Source: a virus (Duplodnaviria; Heunggongvirae; Uroviricota; Caudoviricetes). Taken from it: a stretch of 64,000 nt of DNA. Where the stretch lies: IMG/VR virus record IMGVR_UViG_3300037419_001521, one strand, 5' to 3'. The translations under genes and the position numbers were made by a program. This document shows positions 24,042 to 25,180 of the stretch, piece after piece. How positions within the stretch are numbered: position 1 is the stretch's first letter; every line of letters starts with the position of its first letter. The notes below the pieces were generated by a model. It worked only from the letters and a program-made list of their open reading frames with translations, ran no database searches and was not told the DNA's origin.

Positions 24042-24920
24042 ATGAGCCCAGGAGGGTCGGCGGTGCCTCGCCGAGTACTGTCACGGCAGCTCAAGAAGCT
24101 GCGAGAAGAATCTGGAGTCTCCCCGGCGGTCGCGGCGAAGCGCATCGGCATAGCGGCAAACACGATGTGGCGCTTGGAGTCTGGATATCCGGTTCGGCTA
24201 TACCCGCCGATGATCGAGTCGCTGTGCGAGCTGTACGAAGCGTCGCCGGACACCACGAAGGCGTTGCTCGAGCTACTGGAGCGGTCGCGACAGCCCGGGT
24301 GGTGGTACGCCTACCGTGGTGCGATCCGCGAAGGCTTCGATCTCTACCTCGGCCTGGAAGAAGCGGCCAATCGCCTGACGATCTTCCAGACGACAGCGAT
24401 CCCCGGCCTCGTCCAGATTGCCGACTATCGGCGCGCTACAGTCCAGGCCGCTTCTGCCGGGATGGCCGCCGACGAGATCGATCGCCGTGTCGAGGTGCAG
24501 ATGCGTCGACAGGACCGACTCCAAGACAAGAGGTTCTCGCTGAACGTCCTGCTGAGCGAAGCTGCGTTGCGCCATCGACTCGGCGGGCCGGACGTTATGG
24601 AACGGCAGATGCGCCACCTATTGGAGGTCGGTAAGCTGCCGAATGTGTCGATTCGGGTTGTGCCGTTCGCGAATCCGAATCCGTACGGCCTGCTGAGTAA
24701 TTCGTTCATCCTCGTGGAGTTCCCGCAGCGTAATGGCAACGCCTCGCTCGTCGAGTCACCCGTGGCGTATGTTGAGGGGTACACAGGGGCGCTGTACCAG
24801 GACAAGGAGGACGAGATCCGCCAGTACCTCGCAGTGATCCCCGAGATCGAAAAGGTGGCACTAAGCGAAGACCAATCCAGAGACTTAGTGCTCGACATCA
24901 CAAAGGAGTATGAGAAGTGA
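24042..24920 (+). CDS. XRE-family HTH regulator with DUF5753-like C-terminal domain (WhiJ-like)
   Basis: N-terminal HTH (LSRQLKKLREESGVSPAVAAKRIGIAANTMWRLESG). About 200-aa C-terminal domain typical of Streptomyces WhiJ/Scr1-type regulators. AAGGA RBS. Confidence 0.7.
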   Translation: MSPGGSAVPRRVLSRQLKKLREESGVSPAVAAKRIGIAANTMWRLESGYPVRLYPPMIESLCELYEASPDTTKALLELLERSRQPGWWYAYRGAIREGFDLYLGLEEAANRLTIFQTTAIPGLVQIADYRRATVQAASAGMAADEIDRRVEVQMRRQDRLQDKRFSLNVLLSEAALRHRLGGPDVMERQMRHLLEVGKLPNVSIRVVPFANPNPYGLLSNSFILVEFPQRNGNASLVESPVAYVEGYTGALYQDKEDEIRQYLAVIPEIEKVALSEDQSRDLVLDITKEYEK

Positions 24921-25123
24921 GCAGCAACCTGTCCGAGGCTCCGTGGTTCAAGTCGAGCTACAGCCAGGGGACCGGGGAGTGCGTCGAGGTTGCGTTCGTG
25001 GACGGCAGTCTGGTGGGCGTGCGCGACTCGAAGGACAAGACCGGCCCGGCGCTGGTTTTCGAGCCCAGCGAGTGGGACGCGTTCGCCGCAAACCTGGCGG
25101 GCGGCAAGTTCGACCTGGCGTAG
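24917..25123 (+). CDS. DUF397 (BldB-like) small protein, partner of the XRE regulator
   Basis: WFKSSYSQGTGECVEVAF..GVRDSKD..GPALVF is the DUF397 signature. GTGA overlap with the upstream XRE gene. Confidence 0.7.
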   Translation: MSSNLSEAPWFKSSYSQGTGECVEVAFVDGSLVGVRDSKDKTGPALVFEPSEWDAFAANLAGGKFDLA

Positions 25124-25135
25124 GCCAGCAGTATC

Positions 25136-25180
25136 AAGCCCCCCATGATCTCTTCGGAGGTTGTGGGGGGCTTTCCTTTT
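25136..25180 (+). terminator. intrinsic terminator of the XRE-DUF397 operon
   Basis: AGCCCCCCA...TGGGGGGCT stem followed by a TTCCTTTT tract. Confidence 0.55.

What the first reader, a model, noticed from the sequence alone, without database searches (positions are those of the whole stretch)
24042..25180. WhiJ/BldB-like regulatory pair (XRE-DUF5753 plus DUF397) encoded by a phage at the immunity-region position
The 292-aa XRE-family HTH protein with a long C-terminal domain is translationally coupled (GTGA overlap) to a 68-aa DUF397 signature protein (WFKSSYSQGTGECVEVAF), and the operon has its own terminator. In Streptomyces this pair is known as WhiJ/BldB-type developmental regulator modules. 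Finding one in a phage is unusual. The module is transcribed divergently from the leftward gene block, from an AT-rich promoter region (23800-24040), which is where a lysogeny repressor is usually found. A second, separate divergent HTH pair with operator repeats lies just downstream. The phage may use a WhiJ/BldB-like sensor-antagonist pair for its lysis-lysogeny decision, for superinfection immunity or as a host-development hijack.
Basis: partly seen in the sequence, partly recalled or inferred. Interest (0 to 1): 0.7.

Follow-up and report, generated by a model that had tools for sequence, protein, structure and literature searches.

The report
Host-derived WhiJ/BldB-type regulator cassette in phage
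A likely Nocardia-infecting temperate phage carries a real two-gene regulator cassette of the WhiJ/BldB (XRE-DUF5753 plus DUF397) type, probably copied with its control region from its host, but such cassettes are common in actinobacterial phages and this one is probably an accessory regulator, not the phage's main lysogeny switch.

Summary
ORF 24042-24920 is an HTH_31 + DUF5753 protein. ORF 24917-25123 is a canonical DUF397 protein, joined to it by a GTGA overlap and followed by a 17-bp-stem terminator.

The claim that the pair is unusual in a phage does not hold. PHROGs has families for both proteins. At least seven sequenced actinophages carry the adjacent pair. A single-pattern scan found 230 IMG/VR contigs with relatives, and 77 of the best 80 have DUF397 directly downstream.

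The cassette is conserved at the same position in three related metagenomic phages. Its upstream region is the best-conserved stretch in 6 kb. That region shares repeated TTCCAR and CAGTAGAC elements with the upstream regions of its closest cellular homologues, which are chromosomal Nocardia pairs (42-54% identity). The phage lineage therefore probably captured the whole unit, cis-elements included.

The master switch is more likely the adjacent divergent 174-aa/114-aa HTH pair. Its phased CCACAC operators diverge between relatives and recur at a second promoter region.

In prophage Samy the homologous pair is among the most-expressed genes in 10 of 10 non-inducing conditions, and a different gene is the annotated repressor.

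Verdict: a new member of a known kind, an accessory and probably lysogeny-expressed regulator. Its function in phages has not been studied. Interest is moderate to low.

The parts
23900..24041 (+). Control region and 5' leader of the cassette. It is AT-rich (GC 0.42-0.44). It holds two direct TTCCAG repeats (23954-23959 and 23999-24004, within ATTCCAGAAA and ATTCCAGTAA), a distal TCTAGTAGACACC element (23906-23918), and an AAGGA Shine-Dalgarno (24031-24035).
   Evidence: This is the most conserved stretch in 6 kb: 0.90-0.95 identity to L001 and 0.86-0.91 to L002, against 0.6-0.8 for flanking coding DNA. The same elements recur upstream of the Nocardia homologues: at least 2 forward TTCCAR in 60 of 83 upstream regions against 2 of 80 coding controls. 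Exact ATTCCAGWAA copies occur only here in the window. Promoter and operator function are inferred, not shown. The sigma-70 consensus scan found no promoter.
24042..24920 (+). XRE-family regulator of 292 aa: N-terminal HTH_31 plus C-terminal DUF5753 (WhiJ-like / Scr1-like architecture).
24917..25123 (+). DUF397 protein of 68 aa (canonical BldB-paralogue type), translationally coupled by the GTGA overlap, with its own AAGGAG Shine-Dalgarno at 24903-24908.
   Evidence: Pfam DUF397 E 5.5e-23. It has the family motifs WFKSSYS, CVE and VRDSK. Invariant residues are W10 S13 C22 E24 R36 D37 S38 K39. Closest cellular relatives are Nocardia DUF397 proteins at 56-70% identity. dN/dS is 0.8-1.2 against relatives, over only 67 codons.
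25136..25183 (+). Intrinsic terminator of the cassette: 17-pair stem with a 4-nt loop, followed by a T-rich tail.
   Evidence: Conserved in L001 and L002, with compensatory outer pairs (AAGC..GCTT becomes GAAC..GTTC).
25408..25932 (-). Context, not part of the cassette: 174-aa HTH protein convergent with the cassette, the candidate cI-like repressor.
   Evidence: The start is taken from the gene call on the identical contig L003. HTH hits are weak. It is 62% identical to the L002 counterpart.
25933..26141 (.). Context: divergent switch region with CCACACG repeats at 11-bp phasing (26038-26121).
   Evidence: CCACACR-N3-CCCACAC occurs 4 times in the window against 0.04 expected, including a second site at 21154-21170 in another intergenic region. 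L002 carries different 22-bp repeats at this position.
26142..26486 (+). Context: 114-aa HTH protein with an internal duplication, the candidate Cro-like or early regulator, followed by a WhiB-like gene (26704-27015).

Best explanation
The cassette is a self-contained accessory regulatory unit: control region, whiJ-like XRE-DUF5753 gene, coupled DUF397 gene, terminator. A lineage of temperate siphophages, most likely infecting Nocardia or a close relative, acquired it whole from the host's large family of WhiJ/BldB-type paralogue pairs.

Shown here: family membership of both proteins, coupling and terminator, conserved position in related phages, strong purifying selection on the regulator, exceptional conservation of the upstream region, and sharing of its repeated elements with host loci.

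Inferred: the XRE protein binds through its HTH to the TTCCAR direct repeats upstream of its own gene. There it autoregulates and possibly controls the divergent leftward operon, as WhiJ9 does at direct repeats in its own upstream intergenic region. The DUF397 protein does not bind DNA. It modulates the regulator through protein-protein contact with the DUF5753 domain, which has a non-catalytic PLD-like fold of the kind used as a sensor domain in TrmB. It may also form hetero-oligomers with host DUF397 paralogues.

By analogy with prophage Samy, the unit is expressed in the lysogen. It is not the primary immunity switch. That role fits the neighbouring divergent 174-aa/114-aa HTH pair with phased CCACAC operators.
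For: Identity of the proteins. Autonomous unit: both Shine-Dalgarno sites and the GTGA overlap; terminator conserved with compensatory changes.

Conservation: the pair is syntenic in L001, L002 and L003/L004. The upstream 23891-24089 is the most conserved stretch in 6 kb. XRE dN/dS is 0.15-0.24.

Host origin: the closest cellular homologues are ordinary chromosomal Nocardia pairs with metabolic neighbours. In a neighbour-joining tree the phage clade nests among Nocardia sequences, next to N. terpenica P0006. The cis-elements are shared. The recognition-helix residues T41, W43, R44 and E46 are invariant in the phage plus Nocardia clade but not in distant homologues.

Not the master switch: a separate divergent HTH pair has an 11-bp-phased operator array. 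A second copy of that operator lies at 21154-21170. The operators have diverged in L002. TTCCAR-type sites are absent from other intergenic regions of the window. In phage Austintatious the same kind of pair sits beside separately annotated repressor and cro genes.

Lysogenic expression: Samy SAMYPH_90/91 are in the most-expressed class in 10 of 10 non-inducing conditions, while SAMYPH_32 is the authors' putative immunity repressor (PMC11302927 Table S3).

Mechanistic precedents: WhiJ9 binds three direct repeats upstream of its own gene and activates the divergent gene iosA. BldB does not bind DNA and hetero-oligomerises with its paralogues. 129 natural WhiJ-BldB fusions exist (PMC10294661).

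Against: No expression, binding or interaction data exist for this phage. The promoter scan found no sigma-70 consensus, and the TTCCAR repeats could be promoter elements rather than operators. Samy's pair is only 32% identical and sits elsewhere in its genome, so transferring its expression pattern is an analogy. The 174-aa and 114-aa proteins give only weak HTH matches, so their role as the switch is also inferred. The cassette is present in all four relatives examined, so it does not show the presence/absence pattern typical of recently acquired morons. The tree has no bootstrap support. The PLD-like fold rests on a predicted model. DUF397 dN/dS near 1 could mean relaxed constraint rather than diversification.
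Confidence: 0.55

Rival explanations
1. The XRE-DUF5753 protein is the phage's primary immunity repressor (CI-like). DUF397 is its modulator or antirepressor, so the pair itself makes the lysis-lysogeny decision.
For: It is divergent from a leftward operon, with a highly conserved control region. Homologous pairs lie in lysogeny modules near integrases in Samy, Picard, Success and in at least 20 of 80 IMG/VR loci. The Samy pair is expressed in the lysogen.
Against: An adjacent cI/cro-like divergent pair has phased operators that recur at a second promoter and have diverged between relatives, which is the usual signature of immunity specificity. The XRE control region is nearly identical across phages whose switch regions differ. 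No TTCCAR sites lie at other promoters. The Samy authors, and the annotators of the Austintatious record, annotate different genes as the repressor. The protein has no autocleavage (S24) domain.
Confidence: 0.15
2. The pair is a toxin-antitoxin, abortive-infection or exclusion module. [quoted passage not shown] The module stabilises the prophage or defends the lysogen against other phages.
For: Makarova et al. 2009 predicted DUF397-Xre as a type II TA system. Kaur et al. 2020 link DUF397 to conflict systems. The architecture is a compact coupled two-gene unit, it is expressed in the Samy lysogen, and DUF397 evolves fast (dN/dS 0.8-1.2). BldB/Hpb pairs co-evolve in S. pratensis.
Against: None of 15 S. 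coelicolor DUF397 proteins was toxic when overexpressed (PMC10364602, PMC6262351). Neither protein has a PADLOC hit. The small gene lies downstream of the HTH gene and the large partner has a 190-aa sensor-like domain, which fits a regulator better than an antitoxin. dN/dS over 67 codons is noisy.
Confidence: 0.12
3. The cassette acts mainly on the host. Through the shared operator type and DUF397 hetero-oligomerisation it rewires the host's WhiJ/BldB paralogue network (development, secondary metabolism), or it reads host state to tune prophage induction.
For: The cis-elements and recognition helix are shared with dozens of Nocardia paralogues. The phage DUF397 is 56-70% identical to host proteins. 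BldB-family proteins hetero-oligomerise promiscuously. XRE-DUF397 pairs are pleiotropic regulators when overexpressed.
Against: This is entirely inferential. Shared motifs may only reflect common ancestry of the cassette. No host target is identified, and the host itself is inferred rather than known.
Confidence: 0.18

Closest known systems
WhiJ9/BldB9 and other WhiJ-BldB paralogue pairs of Streptomyces venezuelae and S. coelicolor (whiJ SCO4543/SCO4542)
   Same: An XRE HTH plus long C-terminal domain regulator of about 290 aa, followed by a small DUF397 gene. Direct repeats lie in the regulator's own upstream intergenic region, and a divergent gene sits upstream.
   Different: Sequence identity is low. 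The repeats are of a different type (TTCCAR against CGxxCTCAAC). No abaA-like or iosA-like neighbour is detectable. The pair is encoded on a phage, and the host clade is Nocardia rather than Streptomyces.
Scr1/Scr2 (SCO4441/4442) and the 14 other S. coelicolor XRE-DUF397 pairs; NCBIfam 'Sco1979 family transcriptional regulator'
   Same: Same two-domain regulator plus DUF397 architecture. The NCBIfam match is full-length.
   Different: The score of 196 bits is below the equivalog cut-off of 350, so it is not an orthologue. Those pairs are chromosomal pleiotropic regulators of antibiotic production.
Phage-encoded homologues: Samy SAMYPH_91/90, Picard gp25/24, Mojorita, Darolandstone gp26/25, Success gp6/7, PIS 136 PIS_120/119, Austintatious gp28 plus an unannotated ORF (PHROGs 9908 and 10815)
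   Same: An adjacent, usually overlapping XRE-DUF5753 plus DUF397 pair on its own strand in or near the lysogeny module. The Samy pair is expressed in the prophage state.
   Different: Only 22-32% (XRE) and 41-52% (DUF397) identical. Those phages infect Streptomyces or Saccharomonospora. The present pair belongs to a distinct Nocardia-type clade and sits beside the switch rather than beside the integrase, which lies 30 kb away at 54521-55723.
Chromosomal Nocardia XRE-DUF5753/DUF397 pairs (for example N. terpenica P0006, N. otitidiscaviarum P0007)
   Same: The closest cellular relatives (42-54% and 56-70% identity), with a 68-aa partner, the same upstream TTCCAR / CAGTAGAC / AGCTAAGGA architecture, and the same recognition-helix residues.
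   Different: They lie among ordinary metabolic genes rather than in prophages. No genome in the GTDB set exceeds 53% identity.
TrmB-family regulators and pseudo-PLD domains (FAM83 DUF1669)
   Different: There is no sequence similarity. TrmB has a winged helix and binds sugars. The resemblance rests on a predicted model only.

Membership tests
XRE-DUF5753 (WhiJ-like / Scr1-like) regulators | N-terminal Xre-type HTH (Pfam HTH_31) | tested here: met
   HTH_31, residues 13-75, E 3.5e-13, 50.1 bits against a cut-off of 27. The AF2 model's N-terminal domain matches XRE/C-protein/ClgR structures.
XRE-DUF5753 (WhiJ-like / Scr1-like) regulators | C-terminal DUF5753 domain | tested here: met
   PF19054, residues 101-283, E 1.8e-47, 161.8 bits against a cut-off of 23.4.
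XRE-DUF5753 (WhiJ-like / Scr1-like) regulators | DUF397 gene immediately downstream on the same strand | tested here: met
   GTGA overlap. The same arrangement holds in 77 of 80 IMG/VR loci and in the Nocardia loci.
XRE-DUF5753 (WhiJ-like / Scr1-like) regulators | Orthology to a named member (NCBIfam Sco1979 equivalog cut-off) | tested here: not met
   196.2 bits against a cut-off of 350. It is a family member, not an orthologue of SCO1979. Orthology to WhiJ (SCO4543) was not tested.
XRE-DUF5753 (WhiJ-like / Scr1-like) regulators | Binds repeats in its own upstream region and regulates neighbouring genes | not testable with these tools
   Candidate TTCCAG direct repeats are present and conserved. 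Binding has not been measured.
whiJ-bldB-abaA three-gene loci | abaA-like (or iosA-like) third gene adjacent | tested here: not met
   Neighbours 23415-23762(-), 23245-23418(-) and 22647-23255(-) have no Pfam or PHROGs family.
DUF397 / BldB-like proteins | Pfam DUF397 match with the KSSYS, CxE and RDSK motifs, 60-100 aa | tested here: met
   E 5.5e-23. WFKSSYS, CVE and VRDSK are present. The invariant columns are W10 S13 C22 E24 R36 D37 S38 K39.
DUF397 / BldB-like proteins | BldB proper: extended N-terminus and a poor match to DUF397 | tested here: not met
   The protein has 68 aa, no N-terminal extension and a strong DUF397 match. It is a canonical paralogue type, not a BldB orthologue.
DUF397 / BldB-like proteins | Oligomerises, including with paralogues; interacts with the cognate WhiJ-like protein | not testable with these tools
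   No multimer prediction was available. The search for a natural fusion to model found none in the top 120 hits.
Type II toxin-antitoxin (predicted DUF397-Xre TA) | The small protein is toxic and is neutralised by the HTH partner | not testable with these tools
   Literature: 15 S. coelicolor DUF397 proteins were not toxic. No PADLOC hit.
Phage CI/Cro-type immunity module | Repressor divergent from a cro-like gene, with shared operators between them | tested here: not met
   The divergent partner of the XRE gene is a 115-aa protein with no detectable HTH. The cI/cro-like arrangement with an operator array belongs to the next gene pair, 25408-26486.
Phage CI/Cro-type immunity module | Operator motif recurs at other phage promoters and diverges with immunity type | tested here: not met
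   ATTCCAGWAA occurs exactly only upstream of the XRE gene, and that region is about 90% identical among relatives. The CCACAC operators do recur (21154-21170) and do diverge.
Moron (autonomous accessory transcription unit in a prophage) | Own promoter and own terminator flanking the gene(s) | tested here: inconclusive
   The terminator is met and conserved. A promoter is inferred from the conserved AT-rich region, but no consensus promoter was found.
Moron (autonomous accessory transcription unit in a prophage) | Expressed from the repressed prophage | not testable with these tools
   This is shown only for the distant Samy homologues.
Moron (autonomous accessory transcription unit in a prophage) | Present in some but not all closely related phages; composition differs from the flanks | tested here: not met
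   It is present at the same position in all relatives found. Gene GC is 0.61 against 0.60 for the window.
Phospholipase D / Nuc superfamily (for the DUF5753 domain) | PLD-like alpha/beta fold | tested here: met
   [not shown]
Phospholipase D / Nuc superfamily (for the DUF5753 domain) | Catalytic HxK(x)4D motif | tested here: not met
   No invariant or nearly invariant H or K appears in 67- and 25-sequence alignments. The domain is therefore a non-catalytic relative at most.

The most novel reading that the evidence does not exclude
The phage carries a copy of one of its host's own WhiJ/BldB-type regulator cassettes, complete with the family's operator type and recognition helix. In the lysogen the phage regulator and its fast-evolving DUF397 partner could then cross-talk with dozens of host paralogues. 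One outcome would be reprogramming of host development or secondary metabolism, a form of regulatory lysogenic conversion. The other would be using the host network's state as an input to prophage maintenance or induction.
Probability: 0.25. Interest if true: 0.65.

Novelty: new member of a known kind. Interest (0 to 1): 0.33.

Why it matters
XRE-DUF397 (WhiJ/BldB) pairs are among the most expanded regulator families in filamentous actinobacteria and among the least understood. Their biochemical logic is still open. This analysis shows that such pairs are a common component of actinobacterial (pro)phages: there are PHROG families for both proteins, at least 7 sequenced phages carry the pair, and 230 IMG/VR contigs encode relatives.

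I found no paper in the searchable library that addresses their role in phages. The present case offers a compact, autonomous and evolutionarily conserved cassette. It has a clearly delimited control region and obvious host counterparts, so it could serve as a tractable model for three questions. What DNA does a WhiJ-like protein bind? What does DUF397 do to it? Do prophages tap into host developmental networks?

The prediction that DUF5753 is an HKD-less PLD-like domain also gives a concrete structural hypothesis for the sensor half of the family. As a finding about this particular window, however, it is an ordinary family member in an ordinary place.

Tried and rejected
1. DNA similarity to sequenced phages. 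No megablast or blastn match was found for the locus or the structural region. The phage is new at DNA level, and its closest tail protein is 49% identical to that of Rhodococcus phage REQ3.
2. Close relatives in IMG/VR using the single protein: none found. The alignment-based scan was needed.
It was repeated with the narrower A4.
4. Solved structures by sequence: nothing for either protein.
5. PADLOC: no defence-system match for the pair.
6. Rfam over the whole window: nothing.
7. Search for a natural WhiJ-BldB fusion, to model the interface: none among the top 120 DUF397 hits. The complex could not be modelled.
9. Sigma-70 promoter scan: no site in 23000-27500.
10. GC amelioration as a dating argument was rejected. 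The Nocardia homologue genes themselves have GC 0.617, the same as the phage gene.
11. Search for a TIGR-like guide array near the TIGR-Tas-like ORF: none found.
12. The leftward-block genes have no family assignments, so the cassette's possible divergent target operon remains uncharacterised.
13. The TA reading was considered and down-weighted on published experiments.
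Full report
**1. What is in the sequence**

The window is a siphophage-type genome segment with GC about 0.60. It carries:
- a tape measure gene (13-3111)
- a minor tail gene (4089-5885)
- an endolysin gene (8831-9994)
- a primase/polymerase gene (45546-47951)
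- an RNR small subunit gene (50952-51926)
- a tyrosine integrase gene (54521-55723)

It has no DNA match among 50,697 sequenced phages. Its minor tail protein is closest to those of Rhodococcus phages, at 49% identity.

At the coordinates given, ORF 24042-24920 (+, 292 aa) and ORF 24917-25123 (+, 68 aa) exist and overlap by GTGA. Each has a good Shine-Dalgarno site: AAGGA at 24031-24035 and AAGGAG at 24903-24908.

Pfam places the long protein in HTH_31 (E 3.5e-13) plus DUF5753 (E 1.8e-47). It places the short one in DUF397 (E 5.5e-23). All three scores are far above the curated cut-offs.

A 17-pair hairpin with a T-rich tail follows at 25136-25183. Only 23900-24049 of the upstream region is AT-rich, at GC 0.42-0.44. 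The window holds one copy of each gene.

**2. Is a phage-encoded pair unusual? No**

- PHROGs has a full-length family for the regulator (phrog_9908, E 4e-58) and one for the small protein (phrog_10815, E 3e-18).
- tblastn finds the adjacent pair in Streptomyces phages Samy, Picard, Mojorita, Darolandstone, Success and Austintatious, and in Saccharomonospora phage PIS 136.
- A scan of IMG/VR with a single degenerate pattern found 230 viral contigs that encode relatives.
- In 77 of the best 80 loci a DUF397 ORF follows directly on the same strand.
- At least 20 of the 80 have a serine or tyrosine integrase within 6 kb.

I found no paper in the searchable library that discusses phage-encoded XRE-DUF397 pairs. 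The occurrence is common, but the function is unstudied.

**3. Relatives and origin**

The nearest proteins are 72-100% identical and come from metagenomic contigs of 65-83 kb. In these contigs the pair sits at the same position. The shared gene order is:
- leftward block
- XRE gene
- DUF397 gene (68 aa)
- 174-182-aa HTH gene (-)
- 114-118-aa HTH gene (+)
- 58-aa gene
- WhiB-like gene

The next-closest proteins are Nocardia chromosomal proteins at 42-54% identity. 72 of the best 80 hits among 185,579 species genomes are Nocardia, often with several paralogues per genome, and none exceeds 53%. The two Nocardia loci inspected lie among metabolic genes, not in prophages, and have a 68-aa DUF397 partner that is 56% identical to the phage one. 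The DUF397 protein's best cellular hits are also Nocardia, at 56-70%.

In a neighbour-joining tree without bootstrap, the phage clade nests inside the Nocardia radiation, next to N. terpenica P0006. A Nocardia-like host and capture of the pair from host to phage are therefore likely, though both are inferred.

**4. The control region**

The intergenic DNA upstream of the XRE gene is the most conserved stretch in a 6-kb comparison. Identity over 23891-24089 is 0.90-0.95 to L001 and 0.86-0.91 to L002. Flanking coding DNA is mostly 0.6-0.8, and the XRE protein itself is 87% and 72% identical.

The region contains:
- two direct TTCCAG repeats (23954-23959 and 23999-24004)
- a distal CTAGTAGACACC element (23907-23918)
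- the block ATAGCAAAGCTAAGGAC just before the start codon

The upstream regions of the Nocardia homologues show the same layout:
- yCAGTAGAC at about -140
- CTGGAAGAT at about -115
- cTTCCAR at about -70
- CATTCCAAAA at about -47
- TAGTGAGGCTA next to the start

At least two forward TTCCAR motifs occur in 60 of 83 upstream regions, against 2 of 80 coding controls. Three IMG/VR contigs with 39-42% identical proteins share parts of this layout.

The recognition-helix residues T41, W43, R44 and E46 are invariant in the phage plus Nocardia clade but not in distant homologues. The phage therefore seems to have taken the whole unit, cis-elements included.

By analogy with WhiJ9, the TTCCAR repeats are the best candidates for the regulator's binding sites. 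WhiJ9 binds three direct repeats in its own upstream intergenic region and activates the divergent gene (PMC10294661). This assignment is inferred. Exact copies of the 10-mer occur nowhere else in the window.

**5. Which genes form the master switch**

Immediately downstream, and convergent with the cassette, lies a 174-aa HTH gene (25408-25932, -). It is divergent from a 114-aa HTH gene (26142-26486, +).

- The 209-bp region between them carries CCACACG repeats at 11-bp phasing.
- The dimer CCACACR-N3-CCCACAC occurs four times in the window against 0.04 expected. Three overlapping copies lie here and one lies at 21154-21170, in another divergent intergenic region.
- In relative L002 the corresponding array uses a different 22-bp repeat, and this is the least conserved part of the locus. 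The two proteins are 62% and 71% identical.

Multiple operator sites that diverge between relatives are what an immunity system looks like. The invariant XRE control region is the opposite pattern.

In Austintatious an XRE-DUF5753 gene and an unannotated DUF397 ORF sit beside separately annotated repressor and cro genes. In Samy the authors assign immunity to SAMYPH_32, not to the pair.

**6. Expression precedent**

In Table S3 of the Samy study, SAMYPH_90 and SAMYPH_91 belong to the most-expressed class of prophage genes in 10 of 10 non- or poorly-inducing conditions. The integrase and the putative repressor are in the same class (PMC11302927).

The present cassette has its own conserved control region and a terminator that is conserved with compensatory changes. 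That is the anatomy of an autonomously expressed accessory unit. It is present in all relatives found, so it is an old component of this phage lineage rather than a recent moron.

**7. Protein-level clues to mechanism**

The AF2 model of the regulator is confident (pLDDT 92). Its N-terminal domain matches XRE, C-protein and ClgR structures.

No histidine or lysine is conserved in the family alignments. The domain is thus an HKD-less, presumably non-catalytic PLD-like module of the kind used for ligand or partner binding.

The regulator is under strong purifying selection (dN/dS 0.15-0.24). DUF397 shows dN/dS of 0.8-1.2 with its core motifs intact, over only 67 codons. This fits published observations that BldB/Hpb pairs are among the most divergent, co-evolving genes in S. 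pratensis.

Published work shows that BldB does not bind DNA, that it hetero-oligomerises with most of its paralogues, and that natural WhiJ-BldB fusions exist. None of 15 S. coelicolor DUF397 proteins is toxic, which weakens the old toxin-antitoxin prediction.

**8. Conclusion**

The most likely reading (confidence about 0.55) is a host-derived accessory regulatory cassette that is probably expressed in the lysogen. A WhiJ-like DNA-binding protein acts at the TTCCAR repeats of its own control region, and perhaps on the divergent leftward operon, whose genes have no known families. Its coupled DUF397 partner modulates it.

The rivals, with my confidence in each, are:
- primary immunity repressor: 0.15
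- TA or exclusion module: 0.12
- mainly host-directed cross-talk: 0.18

The finding is a new member of a known kind. Its interest lies less in its presence than in the open question of what such cassettes do for phages.

Noticed in passing
window 18254-19567 (-) (ORF extends to 19735): A protein of 437-493 aa matches NCBIfam NF052498 'TIGR-Tas system RNA-guided endonuclease' (E 2.5e-61, 207 bits against a cut-off of 100). PHROGs calls the family (phrog_4285) a transposase. Homologues sit at the same position in the related contigs. No tandem or interspaced guide-like array was found in 15000-23000.
   Followed up: partly
window 23795-23895 (-): A conserved structured element lies between the leftward operon and the XRE control region. 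It has an 18-pair stem enclosing small hairpins (-43.9 kcal/mol, z -3.95). Two pairs show double compensatory changes in L001/L002, and one G-U pair is valid only on the minus strand. It is likely a leader of the leftward transcript. It has no Rfam family. Only three sequences were available.
   Followed up: partly
window 26038-26121 and 21143-21172: There are phased (11-bp) CCACAC(G/A) repeats in two separate divergent intergenic regions. CCACACR-N3-CCCACAC occurs 4 times against 0.04 expected. These are probably operators of the 174-aa or the 114-aa HTH protein. Relative L002 has a different 22-bp repeat (GCTGATGTTGCCCGGAT) at the first site.
   Followed up: partly
window 26186-26321 (within 26142-26486 +): The 114-aa HTH protein contains an internal tandem duplication of about 23 aa (67-nt direct repeat, 73% identical) ahead of its HTH.
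   Followed up: no
window 24210-24920: The public (JGI) gene call for this locus starts at an internal codon (236 aa, P0002) and loses the HTH domain. The ATG at 24042, with its Shine-Dalgarno, restores HTH_31 and matches all homologues.
   Followed up: yes
L009 (Streptomyces phage Austintatious NC_048153) 4001-4171 (+): A DUF397-like ORF directly after gp28 (XRE-DUF5753-like) is not annotated. The annotated gp29 'transcriptional repressor' on the opposite strand overlaps it. One of the two calls may need revision.
   Followed up: no
L008 (Saccharomonospora phage PIS 136) 4959-6824: In PIS 136 the XRE-DUF397 pair is followed by protein-L-isoaspartate methyltransferase genes. Graspetide papers report co-occurrence of DUF397/DUF5753 pairs with PIMT-containing graspetide clusters.
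   Followed up: no
[not shown]
   Followed up: partly
window 26704-27015 (+); 54521-55723 (+): A WhiB-like regulator gene follows the switch region (Pfam E 1.9e-7). The tyrosine integrase lies 30 kb from the switch, among rightward genes. This layout is unusual compared with Samy and Picard, where the integrase is close to the XRE-DUF397 pair.
   Followed up: no
L090-L092 7564-7820 (-): The Nocardia chromosomal homologues have a small (61-69 aa) divergent ORF upstream of the XRE gene. This is reminiscent of the iosA-whiJ9 arrangement. It was not compared with the phage's 115-aa divergent gene.
   Followed up: no
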